Source: a virus | Taxonomy: Duplodnaviria; Heunggongvirae; Uroviricota; Caudoviricetes | Length of the DNA: 9,422 bases | Strand: one strand, 5' to 3' | Virus record (IMG/VR): IMGVR_UViG_2554235187_000005 | Part shown: positions 3,090-9,306 of the stretch, one piece after another | Position numbering within the stretch: the stretch's first letter is position 1 | Layout of the letters: every line of letters starts with the position of its first letter | Translations under genes and position numbers: made by a program | Notes under the pieces: model-generated | Database searches by the model: none | What the model was told of the DNA's origin: nothing | What the model saw: the letters and a program-made list of their open reading frames with translations, nothing else

Positions 3090-3388
3090 GTGGTAAATGG
3101 GCGGCTGGTGGGTGTGGTGGTTGTTGCTTTCCCGTTGCTGAAAAAGAAAACGCCAGACTGTTAGCCGGGTATCAGTTAGCGGGAGAAATTTTTAAATACT
3201 TCACAATTCAGGCGGTTGACTGTTGTCTGGTTTGCGGGGAGTTTGTTAAAAGAAACTGGCATGGTGAATCCCCCTGTGCGGAGGGGCAATCAGCGAGTAG
3301 GTATATGGGATAATCGCGGATTCAGGTGCTGGTACTGAATTCACCGGGAGGCACCCGGCACCATGCAATGGCACATAGCGCCACTCTC

Positions 3389-3424
3389 CAGCCCCTCTCC
3401 GGAGGGGCTGTTTATATTGATTTT
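3389..3424. terminator. Strong GC-rich hairpin terminator (+ strand; also closes the convergent minus-strand ORF)
   Basis: 9-bp stem CAGCCCCTC/GAGGGGCTG with loop TCCG (3389-3410) followed by TTTATATTGATTTT. Confidence 0.6.
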
Positions 3425-3444: not shown

Positions 3445-3780
3445 TTATGGACTTTGTTGTTTTAGCCCATAAGGACATATTTGCAGAGTGCAACGGTTAT
3501 TAAAGCATTCATTCAATACGTTATCTGTATTTGTAGGGCATTCCTGGCTGTTTTTGATTAAATTCCAGAATGTTTTATTGAATGGTACTACGTTGTAAAT
3601 GGTTACAGGTAGCACTTTGTTATTGAGCATGATACCTGTGTGAGTCAGTGTAAATATACTTTCAGGAGGTAAGAAAGCATCCGATTGATACCAGATTATT
3701 AATTTTATTTTACTCCATATGACTGAAAAAGATATTCCGCATGATGGCTGGATAACTGTATCAATCACAATCCACTTCAT
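3445..3780 (-). CDS. Hypothetical protein (111 aa), Cys-containing, encoded on an AT-rich island
   Basis: Minus-strand ORF with SD AAGGAAA ~6 nt upstream of ATG (rc of 3781-3795); opposite orientation to the late operon; terminator hairpin just downstream of its stop. Confidence 0.5.
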
Positions 3781-4752: not shown

Positions 4753-4756
4753 AGTG

Positions 4757-5647
4757 ATGAATAAAAAATATGAACTGGTTGTTAAGGGGATAAATAATTA
4801 CGGGGATAAGGTTACTGTTACTGTGAAGTCGGAAGGTGACGGGCAAGCGTCGCTGTTGTTGCCAGATGTGGCGATTAGTCTTGACCGTACTGAAGGTGCC
4901 ACGCTGGAGTTTTACGAAGCTGAGGCGAAAAAGCAGGCGAAGCAGTTTTTCATGGATGTTGCTGCCGGGTTATGTGAATGGAACGAACCGTTGCCGGAAA
5001 AGCGCCCCGTAATTTTAGAGGCGCAGGATGTGTTGATAACCTACAAAGGAAAGCTACCGGGAAGAATTACTTGTTCTCTGAAGATGCCGCCGTCAACACT
5101 GCGGTCAGAAAAAGATGATGTTGAATCACGTATTGAAAAACTGGAGAGCTACGTCGTTGAGCTGAATAAGAAATGGTCGATATTGGTGCCTTCTGGCGAT
5201 GAAAAGCAGTTTGCTGCGTTTGACGATTATTGTCGGAAAGTGATGAGCAGAAATCTCGCAGAGTGTTTCAGTATTCATAATGATAATTTCAGTGACCCGG
5301 AATGGGAGTGTAACCGGCCATCCTTTGTTGTATCCGGTGATGCTGGGAAAATAACCATCTCAGAAAATGGGAAAGTAACACCTCCATCGCACCAGCACAG
5401 TGAGGAGCTCATTGAATTTGCCATTGATTACCTGAAGAACAATAAAAAGCAGGGGCTGATGAAGCGCGTTGGCCGTTGCATGGGATATCTTCAGGTAGCC
5501 GCTGAGATTGAAGCGCTGGCCAGTGGTGCTGATAAGGATGCAATTGTGCGGGAGGCTCTTCTTCGTGATTTTAATACTCCACCCTTTAAAAAAGTGCCGG
5601 CTTACTGGCTTCATCCGGGGCTGACTTATCTTAAAGTGCGTATTTAG
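4757..5647 (+). CDS. Unknown-function protein (~296 aa) inserted between holin and endolysin
   Basis: ATG 4757 (GTG 4754) starts 2-5 nt after the holin stop with GGAGAG SD; long clean ORF, no TM segments, predicted coiled-coil-like stretch (DDVESRIEKLESYVVELNKKW); no family recognised. Confidence 0.7.
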   Translation: MNKKYELVVKGINNYGDKVTVTVKSEGDGQASLLLPDVAISLDRTEGATLEFYEAEAKKQAKQFFMDVAAGLCEWNEPLPEKRPVILEAQDVLITYKGKLPGRITCSLKMPPSTLRSEKDDVESRIEKLESYVVELNKKWSILVPSGDEKQFAAFDDYCRKVMSRNLAECFSIHNDNFSDPEWECNRPSFVVSGDAGKITISENGKVTPPSHQHSEELIEFAIDYLKNNKKQGLMKRVGRCMGYLQVAAEIEALASGADKDAIVREALLRDFNTPPFKKVPAYWLHPGLTYLKVRI

Positions 5648-6570: not shown

Positions 6571-6702
6571 ATGTCAGACAAACTCATAACGCTGGCGAAG
6601 ATCCTCTGTGTAATTGTCGGCATTTCATTTTCACTAATGCTGGTTGCTCTTTTTCTTTCCATGGCCTGGATGATGTTGTCTTCGTCGGGGTTGCTGGGGT
6701 GA
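6571..6702 (+). CDS. Small membrane protein (43 aa, single TM helix)
   Basis: ATG 6571 preceded by strong SD GAAGGGAGGA; hydrophobic core [26 protein letters not shown]; stop overlaps the Rz start. Confidence 0.45.
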
Positions 6703-7172
6703 ACATAAACCGAATGCTTTCCGCGTTTATCGTTATTCTGCTGGTGGCCTGTGGTGCGCTGTGGATGGCAACAGACCATTACCGTGATAACGCGATTACC
6801 TACAAAGCGCAGCGCGATAACAAAGCCAGTGAACTGAAGCTGGCGAACGCAACCATTACTGATATGCAGGTGCGCCAGCGCGATGTTGCTGCGCTCGATG
6901 CAAAATACTCGAGGGAATTAGCCGATGCGAGAGCTGAAAATGAAACTCTTCGCGCTGACGTTGCCGCTGGTCGTAAGCGCCTGCGGATCAACGCCACCTG
7001 TCCAGGCTCCGTGCGTGAAGCCCCCACCACCTCCGGCGTGGATAATGCAACCGGCCCCCAACTGGCAGACACCGTTACACGGGATTATTTCACCCTCAGA
7101 GAGCGGCTGATGACGATGCACAAGCAACTGGAAGGGGCACAGGACTATATCCGCACTCAGTGCCTGAAATAA
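6699..7172 (+). CDS. Rz: Rz i-spanin
   Basis: Near-identity to recalled lambda Rz over most of its length ([14 protein letters not shown]..., DYFTLRERL...); N-terminal TM; GTG start at 6699, alternative ATG at 6714. Confidence 0.9.
6940..7110 (+). CDS. Rz1: Rz1 o-spanin lipoprotein embedded in Rz (+1 frame)
   Basis: [15 protein letters not shown] lipobox followed by proline-rich mature region (PPPPPAW); fully nested inside Rz as in lambda; alternative upstream ATG 6925. Confidence 0.8.
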
Positions 7173-7482
7173 GTTTTGTTGATGCGCCGTATCGTCGCTA
7201 TATTCCCTCATTAACAGAGACCGCAGCCCGACAGGGAGACTCCTCTGCGCGAGTGTGCGGGGATAATTAAAAACGATGCACACCGGGTTTTTACCGCGTT
7301 AATGATTCGCGGGTTTATCCCGGTGCGATGGTGGAAGAAACAGGAAGCTGTATTACAGAAAGTGCTACTACTGTATCCCGATGCGATGTATGTAATGTGA
7401 GTCAGATAATGGCACAGGATGTGGTGATGTGGCAGTCTGGAACACAGGATATATTGTCAGAATAAGACCCGTAGGAATAAAA

Positions 7483-7809
7483 ATGAAAAGACGCCTTTTA
7501 CTACTTTTTCTGTTATCTGTCCTGGCAGTGGGATGCTCGCAGCAAAAAGCTGATGAGCCCCGGCAATTAGTGACGGTGTATCCACGATATCCGGAATATG
7601 CTGCAGCAAATTATATCAAGGGGCTGGTTGAGGTTAAGTTCGATATTGGTGCTGATGGGACTGTGACACGGATCGTTTTTCTCCGCTCAGAGCCTCATAA
7701 TTTGTTTCGTGATGAAGTGGTGAAGGCCATGGCGAAATGGCGATTTGAAAAGAATCGCCCCTGTCAGGGAGTGAAGAGACAATTTATCTTTACGCCGTCA
7801 CGTCCTTGA
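7483..7809 (+). CDS. Lipoprotein with TonB C-terminal-like domain (phage moron)
   Basis: SD AGGA 6 nt before ATG; signal peptide plus lipobox LAVGC; mature part matches the TonB-CTD pattern (YPxYPxxA...G-V-V-KFDI--DGTV--I--L-S-P---F--EV--AM--WRF). Confidence 0.6.
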   Translation: MKRRLLLLFLLSVLAVGCSQQKADEPRQLVTVYPRYPEYAAANYIKGLVEVKFDIGADGTVTRIVFLRSEPHNLFRDEVVKAMAKWRFEKNRPCQGVKRQFIFTPSRP

Positions 7810-7901
7810 TGCTTCCAGGTAGAGAGGGGCTGGACGCAGGAGAAAAATGAAAGAGCCAGCGGTTATATTTTTGTCATGGCTGACGAGGAATGATGGAAGA
7901 A

Positions 7902-7950
7902 GGCGTTGTATGCCACACAACGCCTCACTGTTCATTTCTTCTTTTTCTCT
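7902..7950. terminator. Bidirectional terminator between convergent genes
   Basis: Hairpin GGCGTTGT/ACAACGCC (7902-7924) followed on + by a T-rich TCACTGTTCATTTCTTCTTTTTCTC. Confidence 0.45.
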
Positions 7951-8111
7951 GGTGGAACCCGATGAATAAGAGTTGCACTGGTTTCCGATGAGATGGCGAT
8001 ATACTCGGGCAAAGTATGCTGGCAGTTTTCCAACTGGTCAAAAATACCTGCTCTCGTCTGTTGCAATGCCTGCAGCATGCGGCGGCAATGCGCCTTGCTT
8101 TTACTAACCAT
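7932..8111 (-). CDS. Hypothetical small protein (59 aa; in-frame extension possible to 8285)
   Basis: Minus-strand ATG (rc of 8109-8111) preceded by strong SD AGGAAGGA; the longer 117-aa version overlaps the adjacent ORF; C-terminal KKKK is encoded by the terminator T-tract, which is suspicious. Confidence 0.3.
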   Translation of the reverse strand: MVSKSKAHCRRMLQALQQTRAGIFDQLENCQHTLPEYIAISSETSATLIHRVPPEKKKK

Positions 8112-8424: not shown

Positions 8425-8572
8425 TTGATGATGCCTCTGTGTGAAATGACGGTAAACGACGCACTTGTGCCGGCACATAATAGCAAGCACCATAATAGAT
8501 CAGATTCGATTCTTGCTGTAAGTGATAATTATTCTCGTTTTCGGGTCCTTTCCGTCGATCCAACAGGTTACG

Positions 8573-8760: not shown

Positions 8761-9306
8761 ATGAAGGTTAATAAAAAGAAACTTGCCGAAATTTTCAACG
8801 TGGATCCGCGAACGATTGAACGCTGGCAGTCTCAGGGACTCCCTTGCGTCTCCGGAGGTGGTAAGGGCGTTGAATCTGTATTTGATACCGCCATGGCAAT
8901 TCAGTGGTATGCGCAGAGGGAAGCTGATATCGAAAATGAAAAACTCCGTAAAGAGGTTGAGGATTACAGGGCTGCCAGTGAGGCAGATCTCCAGCCTGGG
9001 ACTATTGAGTACGAACGCCATCGACTTACGCGTGCGCAGGCCGACGCACAGGAGCTGAAAAATGCCAGAGACTCCGCTGAAGTGGTGGAAACCGCATTCT
9101 GTACTTTCGTGCTGTCACGGATCGCAGGTGAAATTGCCAGTATTCTTGACGGGATCCCTCTCTCGGTACAGCGGCGTTTTCCGGAACTGGAAAACCGACA
9201 TGTTGATTTCCTGAAACGGGATATCATCAAAGCCATGAACAAAGCAGCCGCGCTGGATGAACTGATACCGGGGTTGCTGAGTGAATATATCGAACAGTCA
9301 GATTGA
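8761..9306 (+). CDS. nu1: Terminase small subunit Nu1
   Basis: 181-aa product near-identical to recalled lambda gpNu1 from ~residue 60 onward; N-terminal wHTH region diverged ([30 protein letters not shown]...). Confidence 0.9.

What the first reader, a model, noticed from the sequence alone, without database searches (positions are those of the whole stretch)
7483..7809. Prophage-encoded lipoprotein carrying a TonB C-terminal-like domain in the bor position
Directly after Rz, where lambda carries the outer-membrane lipoprotein gene bor, this phage has a lipoprotein whose mature part resembles the TonB C-terminal domain that docks onto TonB boxes of outer-membrane transporters. A lipid-anchored TonB-CTD mimic could compete with host TonB at receptors such as FhuA and so block TonB-dependent phages or colicins, analogous in outcome to Cor-type exclusion. 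That mechanism is my inference.
Basis: partly seen in the sequence, partly recalled or inferred. Interest (0 to 1): 0.7.

Follow-up and report, generated by a model that had tools for sequence, protein, structure and literature searches.

The report
Prophage outer-membrane lipoprotein mimicking TonB's C-terminal domain
This prophage gene encodes a small lipid-anchored copy of the part of TonB that docks onto outer-membrane nutrient transporters; it is found in about a quarter of E. coli genomes and in classical phage 21, but nobody has tested what it does.

Summary
Window 7483-7809 (+) encodes a 108-aa protein with three parts:
- a lipoprotein signal peptide, with the lipid-modified Cys at residue 18;
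- a 7-residue tether;
- a complete TonB C-terminal domain.

Evidence for the domain:
- Pfam TonB_C E=7e-13.
- A gapless alignment to E. coli TonB 150-230.
- An AF2 model (pLDDT >97) that superposes on receptor-bound TonB at 0.8-1.0 Å.

The gene is real and under purifying selection (dN/dS 0.12 against a 72%-identical variant). It is already annotated but unstudied. An identical copy is in phage 21 ("TonB C-terminal domain protein"), in a Nissle 1917 prophage and in 1225 of 5426 complete E. coli genomes. The 72% variant is in 415 genomes.

"In the bor position" is imprecise. In phage 21, and in 35 of 58 surveyed loci of this variant, bor lies between Rz and this gene on the opposite strand. The gene occupies its own cargo slot between the lysis genes and ylcI/cos, in late-operon orientation.

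It is not a fragment of host tonB. It belongs to a clade of short lipoprotein TonB_C proteins, some of which are chromosomal or plasmid-borne.

The decoy mechanism (blocking TonB boxes) is plausible and has an experimental precedent, but it remains inference. I found no promoter evidence and no published phenotype.

The parts
7483..7809 (+). CDS, 108 aa: lipoprotein with a TonB C-terminal domain (WP_000830178.1; phage 21 CPT_21_73)
   Evidence: ORF. Pfam TonB_C E=7e-13. PDB TonB CTD E=1e-14. Fold TM 0.91. dN/dS 0.12. Identical gene annotated in phage 21 and in RefSeq.
7483..7536 (+). Lipoprotein signal peptide, residues 1-18, with lipobox A-V-G-C; Cys18 codon at 7534-7536
   Evidence: Read directly from the sequence. 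Cys18 is invariant in 13 family members, and every lipobox is followed by S, T or A at +2.
7537..7557 (+). Short tether SQQKADE, residues 19-25, between the lipid anchor and the first ordered residue of the domain (P26, equivalent to TonB P153)
   Evidence: Alignment to 2gsk_B, whose chain begins at the equivalent Pro. The tether is about 7-14 residues in most aligned lipoprotein relatives (read).
7558..7797 (+). TonB_C domain, residues 26-105 (short helix, beta1, beta2, helix, beta3). The YP motif (Y36-P37) and the aromatic cluster F53, F75, W86, F88, F103 are retained. Only 5 residues follow beta3 (94-103).
7473..7476 (+). Shine-Dalgarno AGGA, 6 nt before the ATG
   Evidence: Sequence. Annotated as the RBS in phage 21.
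7183..7345 (.). Conserved non-coding joint upstream of the gene, with a hairpin at 7281-7325. It is shared with many lambdoid phages and forms the left boundary of the cargo slot.
   Evidence: Homology to phage 21 resumes at 7183, after the point where phage 21 has bor. The block is found in 432 phage records, including lambda. It is much better conserved against JLK-2012 than the CDS is.
7901..7925 (+). 9-bp GC-rich hairpin followed by a T-rich tract; a possible plus-strand terminator 92 nt after the stop codon
   Evidence: RNA fold. It was not picked up by the strict terminator scan, so it is tentative.
7932..8111 (-). Convergent YlcI/YnfO-family small gene (59 aa), the right boundary of the slot
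   Evidence: phrog_4843. RefSeq WP_000253883.1. It follows the TonB_C gene in 78 of the 80 surveyed loci.
6699..7172 (+). Context: i-spanin Rz, with o-spanin Rz1 embedded at 6940-7110. The lysis cassette is complete without the TonB_C protein.
   Evidence: Pfam Phage_lysis E=2e-47. The Rz1 ORF has lipobox VSAC and a Pro-rich mature part.
8761..9306 (+). Context: terminase small subunit Nu1, the start of the head genes
   Evidence: Pfam Phage_Nu1 E=7e-91.

Best explanation
The gene makes a small lipoprotein. [quoted passage not shown] A 7-residue tether would then hold a complete but un-energisable TonB C-terminal domain against the periplasmic face of the membrane.

There it would act as a decoy. 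Its exposed beta3 edge strand would pair with the TonB boxes of TonB-dependent transporters (FhuA, BtuB, FepA, Cir and others), and possibly with the TonB boxes of incoming group B colicins. Host TonB would be kept off.

The result would be a partial tonB phenocopy: reduced sensitivity to TonB-dependent phages (T1, phi80), group B colicins and microcins, at some cost in siderophore and B12 uptake.

Because the gene lies in late-operon orientation between Rz and cos, it is transcribed at least during lytic growth. Expression in the lysogen is not established.

Shown here: the architecture, the domain identity, the fold, purifying selection, and the conserved position in phages.
Inferred: outer-membrane localisation (from sorting rules), TonB-box binding, and the exclusion phenotype.
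For: - Domain identity and a fold essentially the same as receptor-bound E. coli TonB CTD: rmsd 0.8-1.0 Å to 2grx_C and 2gsk_B.
- The YP motif and the aromatic residues equivalent to TonB Y163, F180, F202, W213, Y215 and F230 are retained, as is G186.
- The protein ends 5 residues after beta3, so the strand that pairs with TonB boxes in 2GRX and 2GSK has no C-terminal extension after it (the pairing itself is established knowledge from those structures).
- The lipobox Cys is invariant, +2 is never Asp, and tethers are about 7-14 residues in most aligned lipoprotein relatives. That is too short to reach the peptidoglycan layer but suits the periplasmic rim of a barrel (inference).
- Strong purifying selection: dN/dS 0.12 with dS about 1.5.
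- The same architecture sits in the same place (lysis cassette, then this gene, then terminase) in three unrelated phage backbones: phage 21-like, JLK-2012/Stx1a phages, and Klebsiella phage ST13-OXA48phi12.4. A further prophage shows the same.
- Precedent: over-produced periplasmic TonB fragments inhibit iron import through TonB-dependent transporters (Howard et al. 2001, J Bacteriol 183:5885, as cited in PMC9841981). That they also inhibit phi80 infection and colicin M killing is from my own recollection of that paper, which is not held in the library.
- Phage outer-membrane lipoproteins that inactivate a TonB-dependent transporter from the periplasmic side already exist: T5 Llp and Cor.
Against: - No experiment on this protein was found.
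- TonB R158, Q160 and R166, implicated in receptor contacts or suppressor genetics, are T, Y and Y here.
- No sigma-70 promoter at the usual threshold and no Fur box lie upstream, so lysogenic expression, which exclusion or colicin tolerance needs, is unproven.
- Relatives with the same architecture sit in ordinary chromosomal contexts (Raoultella, Erwinia, Gibbsiella) and on a plasmid. The family's basic function is therefore not phage-specific.
- Blocking all TonB-dependent uptake would be costly for a lysogen.
- There is no hit to any PADLOC defence model.
- To my knowledge, no exclusion phenotype against T1 or phi80 has been reported for phage 21 lysogens. This is weak evidence because it was probably never tested.
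Confidence: 0.4

Rival explanations
1. Same fold, different partner. The lipoprotein uses the TonB_C domain as a general beta-augmentation module to bind something other than TonB boxes, for example another envelope protein or peptidoglycan. It would serve envelope physiology or host fitness, as a moron like Bor, Iss or Lom, and not exclusion.
For: - Homologues with the same architecture are chromosomal in Raoultella, Erwinia and Gibbsiella, next to sugar or redox genes with no phage genes nearby.
- The gene travels with virulence or fitness cargo (bor/iss, sitABCD) in phage 21 and the Nissle 1917 prophage.
- The receptor-contact residues R158, Q160 and R166 are not conserved, and the clade has its own signature (Y at the R166 position, A-N, SEPxHLFD) distinct from true TonBs.
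Against: - The tether of about 7-14 residues keeps the domain at the membrane, which makes peptidoglycan an unlikely target (inference from Lpp dimensions).
- The only partners established for this fold are TonB boxes and TonB-box-like segments.
- No alternative partner is suggested by the gene neighbourhood.
Confidence: 0.25
2. A TonB trap instead of a TonB-box blocker. The domain forms mixed dimers with the C-terminal domain of host TonB at the outer membrane and sequesters TonB itself.
For: - Short TonB CTD fragments crystallise as intertwined dimers (1ihr and 1u07 appear among the hits).
- Howard et al. 2001 raised mixed dimers as an alternative explanation for inhibition by periplasmic fragments (my own recollection of the paper, which is cited).
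Against: - A paper listed (PMC3005593) is titled 'The TonB Dimeric Crystal Structures Do Not Exist In Vivo'.
- The protein lacks the residues after beta3 that contribute to the 1u07 dimer.
- It is only 39% identical to host TonB CTD.
Confidence: 0.1
3. A lysis accessory or spanin-like protein, as the PHROG label ('Rz-like spanin', phrog_1267) implies.
For: - Full-length match to phrog_1267, E=5e-43.
- It is a small lipoprotein lying downstream of Rz in late-operon orientation.
Against: - A complete Rz/Rz1 pair is already present at 6699-7172 and 6940-7110.
- o-spanins are short, Pro-rich and unfolded, whereas this is a folded TonB_C domain.
- bor on the opposite strand separates it from Rz in most loci.
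- Chromosomal and plasmid homologues have no lysis genes nearby.
- The label looks like annotation by position.
Confidence: 0.03
4. A non-functional remnant of host tonB picked up by the phage, as labels such as 'TonB fragment' and 'partial tonB-like membrane protein' suggest.
For: Database labels in phage Perceval, ev017 and CP-933N. It has only the C-terminal domain.
Against: - dN/dS 0.12 over 108 codons.
- It has its own lipoprotein signal with an invariant Cys, plus an RBS.
- It clusters with other short lipoprotein TonB_C proteins and not with enterobacterial TonB CTDs.
- It is intact in 1221 of the 1225 genomes that carry it.
Confidence: 0.02

Closest known systems
C-terminal domain of E. 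coli TonB (residues ~150-239; PDB 1U07, 1XX3, 2GSK chain B, 2GRX chain C)
   Same: - Same Pfam domain and the same fold, with rmsd 0.8-1.5 Å.
- About 39% identity in a gapless alignment.
- The YP motif and the aromatic cluster are conserved.
   Different: - No N-terminal membrane anchor, no Pro-rich spacer and no link to ExbBD, so it cannot be energised.
- It is anchored to the opposite (outer) membrane by lipid.
- It ends just after beta3.
- R158, Q160 and R166 are substituted.
- It forms a separate clade.
Periplasmically expressed TonB fragments (Howard, Herrmann, Stratilo and Braun 2001)
   Same: An un-energised TonB C-terminal domain placed in the periplasm. These fragments inhibit iron import through TonB-dependent transporters. 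The details on phi80 and colicin M are from my own knowledge.
   Different: - Those were laboratory constructs of host TonB: soluble, over-produced, and at least 118 residues long.
- This is a natural phage gene, lipid-anchored, with an 80-residue domain of a different lineage.
Phage lipoproteins Llp (T5) and Cor (phi80, HK022, N15, mEp167)
   Same: Small phage-encoded outer-membrane lipoproteins that act on a TonB-dependent transporter (FhuA) from the periplasmic side to give superinfection exclusion.
   Different: - Unrelated sequence and fold. The model has no significant match in the viral structure library BFVD.
- Llp and Cor are FhuA-specific and work allosterically.
- A TonB-domain decoy would act on the shared TonB box and so on many transporters.
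Bor / Iss lipoprotein of lambda
   Same: A small outer-membrane lipoprotein encoded as cargo just after Rz in lambdoid phages.
   Different: - No sequence relationship: the only Pfam hit is TonB_C.
- Opposite strand.
- The two genes co-occur side by side in phage 21, in the Nissle 1917 prophage and in 35 of 58 surveyed loci of this variant.
Short chromosomal and plasmid lipoproteins with a TonB_C domain (e.g. Raoultella ornithinolytica, Gibbsiella, Erwinia; all uncharacterised)
   Same: Same architecture of lipobox, short tether and TonB_C ending after beta3. They share 35-45% identity and fall in the same clade in a rough tree.
   Different: They are not in prophages, and none has a known function.

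Membership tests
TonB_C domain family (Pfam PF03544 / TIGR01352) | Profile match above the curated threshold | tested here: met
   PF03544 gives 49.2 bits against a cutoff of 24.6, E=7e-13. TIGR01352 gives 47.4 bits against 27.1.
TonB_C domain family (Pfam PF03544 / TIGR01352) | The TonB CTD fold (short helix, two-stranded hairpin, helix, third strand completing the sheet) | tested here: met
   The AF2 model has pLDDT >97 over the domain. The top 16 Foldseek PDB hits are all TonB-family CTDs, with TM up to 0.92.
TonB_C domain family (Pfam PF03544 / TIGR01352) | Conserved YP motif and aromatic core residues | tested here: met
   Y36-P37, F53, G59, F75, W86, F88 and F103 align with TonB Y163-P164, F180, G186, F202, W213, Y215 and F230.
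TonB energy transducer proper | N-terminal cytoplasmic-membrane anchor that couples to ExbB/ExbD | tested here: not met
   The N-terminus is a cleavable lipoprotein signal peptide, and the mature protein starts at Cys18.
TonB energy transducer proper | Proline-rich periplasm-spanning spacer, and full-length equivalog HMM score | tested here: not met
   The protein is only 108 aa. The TonB equivalog models score 45-69 bits against cutoffs of 265-448 and match only their C-terminal ~80 positions.
Bacterial outer-membrane lipoproteins | Signal peptide with a lipobox ending in Cys, and no Asp at +2 | tested here: met
   MKRR-LLLLFLLSVL-AVGC-SQQ. The Cys is invariant in the family and +2 is S, T or A. 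This is sequence rules only.
Bacterial outer-membrane lipoproteins | Actual lipidation and outer-membrane localisation | not testable with these tools
   Needs globomycin or palmitate labelling and membrane fractionation.
Cor / Llp superinfection-exclusion lipoproteins | Cor/Llp sequence family or fold | tested here: not met
   TonB_C is the only Pfam hit. No BFVD viral structure matches with E<0.2. The Llp/Cor fold is described as distinct.
Cor / Llp superinfection-exclusion lipoproteins | Blocks infection by phages that use a TonB-dependent transporter | not testable with these tools
   Needs plating assays.
Bor / Iss | Homology to lambda Bor | tested here: not met
   No Bor-family Pfam hit. 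A true bor is found as a separate neighbouring gene in phage 21 and in 35 of 58 surveyed loci of this variant.
o-spanin (Rz1-like), the PHROG 1267 label | Small Pro-rich lipoprotein paired with, usually embedded in, an i-spanin gene and required for outer-membrane disruption | tested here: not met
   A separate embedded Rz1 exists at 6940-7110. This protein is a folded domain and is separated from Rz by bor in most loci.
Known anti-phage defence systems (PADLOC) | Match to any defence-system protein model | tested here: not met
   No hit at E<0.1.

The most novel reading that the evidence does not exclude
Temperate phages of Enterobacteriaceae carry a lipid-anchored molecular mimic of TonB's docking domain. 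It occupies TonB boxes at the outer membrane and gives the host broad tolerance to many TonB-dependent phages, colicins and microcins at once. This would be a receptor-independent form of exclusion, distinct from Cor/Llp, and present in roughly a quarter or more of E. coli genomes. In phage 21-type prophages it might be offset by the TonB-independent iron/manganese importer SitABCD carried on the same element.
Probability: 0.3. Interest if true: 0.75.

Novelty: new variant of a known kind. Interest (0 to 1): 0.55.

Why it matters
If the decoy idea is right, one 108-residue prophage protein would modulate every TonB-dependent process of the host: siderophore and B12 uptake, group B colicin and microcin killing, and T1/phi80-type infection.

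The gene is widespread:
- variant 1 is in 1225 of 5426 complete E. coli genomes, and variant 2 is in 415;
- carriers include probiotic Nissle 1917, the E. coli type strain, and Stx1a-converting phages.

It would then bear on phage-therapy host range, on colicin and microcin ecology in the gut, and on siderophore-conjugate ("Trojan horse") antibiotics.

It would also be a natural tool: an un-energisable TonB domain placed at the outer membrane, useful for separating binding from energy transduction.

Even if the decoy idea is wrong, the family of short TonB_C lipoproteins found on chromosomes, plasmids and phages has no known function. The experiments that would settle it are simple.

Tried and rejected
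- First AF2 run used only 6 close homologues and gave pLDDT 60.8, too low to use. It was repeated with 21 diverse sequences.
- The BFVD viral fold search gave nothing significant, so there is no structural link to Cor or Llp.
- The PADLOC defence models gave no hit.
- Seven literature searches for any study of this protein found none. Howard 2001 is not held in the library.
- The promoter search found no plus-strand sigma-70 site at the standard threshold. A relaxed scan gave only weak candidates: TTGTTG-17-TATATT at 7176-7204, and an extended -10-like TGTCAGAAT at 7455-7463. I do not rely on them.
- The best Fur-box match upstream is 11 of 19, so there is no evidence of iron regulation.
- The upstream 45-aa ORF (7328-7465, annotated in phage 21) does not look like a real gene. 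Its alignment with JLK-2012 contains single-base indels that break the frame.
- 'Pseudogene or fragment of host tonB' was rejected on dN/dS and the tree.
- The 'spanin' PHROG label was rejected.
- Rfam found no known RNA in 7100-7500.
The repeat found only 4 loci.
- The afdb50 fold library was unavailable.
- Linkage to sitABCD is not general. It is present in phage 21 but absent from the window's own prophage.

Full report
**What is there**

Window 7483-7809 (+) is an intact 108-codon ORF. It has an AGGA ribosome-binding site at 7473-7476 and a TGA stop at 7807-7809. RefSeq (WP_000830178.1) and the curated phage 21 record use the same start.

The product reads MKRRLLLLFLLSVLAVGC|SQQKADE-PRQLVTVYPRYPEYAAANYIKG... 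It has three parts:
- a lipoprotein signal peptide ending in a lipobox, with Cys18 as the lipid-modified residue;
- a 7-residue tether;
- an ~80-residue domain.

Evidence that the domain is a TonB C-terminal domain:
- Pfam TonB_C E=7.3e-13, 49.2 bits against a gathering score of 24.6.
- TIGR01352 above its cutoff.
- phmmer against PDB gives E=1.4e-14 to E. coli TonB C-terminal domain chains. Residues 23-103 align without gaps to TonB 150-230, with 33 of 85 identical.
- With a 21-sequence alignment, AF2 gives pLDDT >97 across the domain.
- Foldseek against PDB returns only TonB C-terminal domains at the top. These include the receptor-bound forms in BtuB:TonB (2gsk_B, rmsd 1.0 Å) and FhuA:TonB (2grx_C, rmsd 0.8 Å).

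**Is it a real gene?**

Yes.
- Against the 72%-identical variant in phage JLK-2012, dN/dS is 0.12 with dS about 1.5.
- The lipobox Cys is invariant across 13 family members.
- The gene is full length in 1221 of the 1225 complete E. coli genomes that carry it.

**How common, and is it already annotated?**

- The identical protein is encoded by classical phage 21 (CPT_21_73, "TonB C-terminal domain protein"), by phages ev017, Perceval and the PhiR series, and by a prophage of Nissle 1917.
- It is in 1225 of 5426 complete E. coli genomes, nearly all at 99% identity or more.
- The 72% variant, found in Stx1a-converting phages and JLK-2012, is in 415 genomes.
- A 41% relative with the same architecture is in Klebsiella phage ST13-OXA48phi12.4.
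- PGAP calls it "TonB family protein". Older records call it "TonB fragment" or "partial tonB-like membrane protein". PHROGs files it under "Rz-like spanin".

So the resemblance to TonB is already in the databases. I found no paper that studies the protein.

**Where it sits**

The window is part of a lambdoid prophage next to potB in strains such as MZ1211. The gene order is Q, pinholin, a DUF1327 ORF, endolysin, Rz/Rz1, this gene, a convergent ylcI/ynfO-family gene, then Nu1.

- In phage 21 and in the Nissle 1917 prophage, bor/iss lies between Rz and this gene on the opposite strand.
- The window simply lacks that segment. Homology to phage 21 resumes at 7183.
- In a survey of 80 IMG/VR loci, wherever the flanking genes are within the locus the order is Rz(+), [bor(-)], TonB_C(+), YnfO(-), terminase(+). 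bor is present in 35 of the 58 loci of this variant.

The gene is thus alternative cargo in a slot bounded on two sides:
- on the left by a conserved non-coding joint (7183-7345), found in 432 lambdoid phage records including lambda;
- on the right by ylcI/cos.

It runs in the direction of the late operon, so Q-antiterminated late transcription must cross it. I found no convincing promoter of its own and no Fur box. A hairpin with a T-rich tail at 7901-7925 could be its terminator.

**Where it comes from**

It is not a recent piece of host tonB.
- An exhaustive profile search found 5311 TonB_C proteins. The closest full-length matches are other proteins of ~107-133 aa with a lipobox, a short tether and a TonB_C domain that ends soon after beta3.
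- In a rough neighbour-joining tree the phage proteins group with these, apart from true enterobacterial TonB C-terminal domains.
- Their contexts vary. One is in a prophage between a spanin-like gene and HNH/terminase. Others are in ordinary chromosomal neighbourhoods in Gibbsiella, Raoultella and Erwinia. One is on a plasmid beside ParM/StbB and a Qat defence system.

The phage gene therefore belongs to a wider, uncharacterised family of short TonB_C lipoproteins.

**How it most likely works**

What is shown here:
- the architecture, the fold, the selection and the conserved placement in phages;
- the YP motif and the aromatic core of TonB are retained;
- only five residues follow beta3, the strand that pairs with the TonB box in 2GRX and 2GSK.

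What is inferred:
- With a tether of about 7-14 residues in most aligned lipoprotein relatives, the domain would be held at the periplasmic rim of the barrels. That is too close to the membrane to reach peptidoglycan.

Precedents:
- Over-produced periplasmic TonB fragments inhibit iron uptake through TonB-dependent transporters (Howard et al. 2001, as cited in PMC9841981). By my own recollection of that paper they also inhibit phi80 infection and colicin M killing.
- Phage lipoproteins Llp and Cor already show that phages block FhuA from the periplasmic side.

My best explanation, at confidence 0.4, is a lipid-anchored, un-energisable TonB-domain decoy. It would occupy the TonB boxes of transporters, and possibly of incoming colicins, and give a partial tonB phenocopy.

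**Evidence against, and rivals**

Against the decoy idea:
- R158, Q160 and R166 of TonB are T, Y and Y here.
- The clade has its own sequence signature.
- Chromosomal relatives argue that the family's basic role is not phage exclusion.
- Lysogenic expression is unproven.
- Blanket inhibition of TonB would be costly.

Rivals:
- A different binding partner or an envelope-fitness role (0.25).
- Sequestration of TonB itself by mixed dimers (0.1).
- A spanin accessory (0.03). This is contradicted by the complete Rz/Rz1 pair and by the folded domain.
- A dead tonB fragment (0.02). This is contradicted by the dN/dS value.

**Comparison with known things**

It is a member of the TonB_C domain family; all three defining features tested were met. 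It is not a TonB: it has no membrane anchor and no Pro-rich spacer, and it falls far below the equivalog scores. It is not a Cor, Llp, Bor or spanin family member. Functionally it may resemble Cor and Llp in outcome and laboratory TonB fragments in mechanism.

**Verdict**

- Novelty: a new variant of a known kind. It is a natural, outer-membrane-anchored TonB domain carried by phages. It is annotated but unstudied.
- Interest is moderate to high (0.55). The gene is very common, the hypothesis is sharp, and simple plating, colicin and uptake assays would settle it.

Noticed in passing
window 3230-3419 (+): Strong Rfam match to the sRNA family STnc100 (132 bits, E=1e-29). It lies downstream of the Q antiterminator gene.
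   Followed up: no
window 3445-3780 (-): ORF annotated in the identical RefSeq region as the anti-adapter protein IraM (an RpoS stabiliser). It is prophage cargo between Q and the holin gene.
   Followed up: no
window 4754-5647 (+): An intact 297-aa ORF (DUF1327 at the N-terminus; full-length match to phrog_1085) lies between the pinholin and endolysin genes. RefSeq annotates only a partial YdfR-family pseudogene here.
   Followed up: partly
window 7183-7345, hairpin 7281-7325: A non-coding block upstream of the gene is shared with 432 lambdoid phage records, including lambda. Against JLK-2012 it is much better conserved than the adjacent coding sequence (dS about 1.5). It contains a two-step hairpin, CACCGGG..CCGCG..CGCGG..CCCGGTG, whose stems are kept in JLK-2012. 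It could be a mosaic recombination joint or an unrecognised RNA or DNA element. There is no Rfam match.
   Followed up: partly
window 7901-7925 (+): A 9-bp GC-rich hairpin followed by a T-rich tract, 92 nt after the stop codon, may be a terminator. It overlaps a 40-aa ORF that phage 21 annotates as a hypothetical protein (CPT_21_74), and that ORF is therefore doubtful.
   Followed up: partly
window 7328-7465 (+): A 45-aa ORF annotated as a hypothetical protein in phage 21 (CPT_21_72). Its frame is broken by single-base indels in the JLK-2012 alignment, so it is probably not a gene.
   Followed up: partly
L014 (phage 21, OL657228.1 21967-25416) and L001: Phage 21 carries sitABCD (a TonB-independent iron/manganese ABC importer) and bor/iss as well as the TonB_C lipoprotein. 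This is a suggestive iron-related cargo set. sitABCD is absent from the window's own prophage, so the linkage is not general.
   Followed up: partly
L013 5348-5737: A 129-aa lipoprotein with a TonB_C domain lies on a plasmid-like contig, directly after ParM/StbB partition genes and upstream of a Qat anti-phage defence system (KAP NTPase, QatB, TatD).
   Followed up: no
L096 6998-7333 (Raoultella ornithinolytica), L098 (Erwinia sp.), L007 (Gibbsiella): Homologues with the same lipoprotein plus TonB_C architecture sit in ordinary chromosomal neighbourhoods (lacZ/lacI and DUF1440; araA/araB; ahpC/ahpF and GST). The family is not restricted to phages and has no known function.
   Followed up: partly
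PHROG phrog_1267: This PHROG, which the protein matches over its full length, is labelled 'Rz-like spanin'. The label appears to be annotation by position and is not supported by the domain, the fold or the context.
   Followed up: yes
window 8524-8542: The best Fur-box-like site in the window (15 of 19 matches) lies in the AT-rich region next to the position equivalent to phage 21 cosQ. It is probably a chance match.
   Followed up: no
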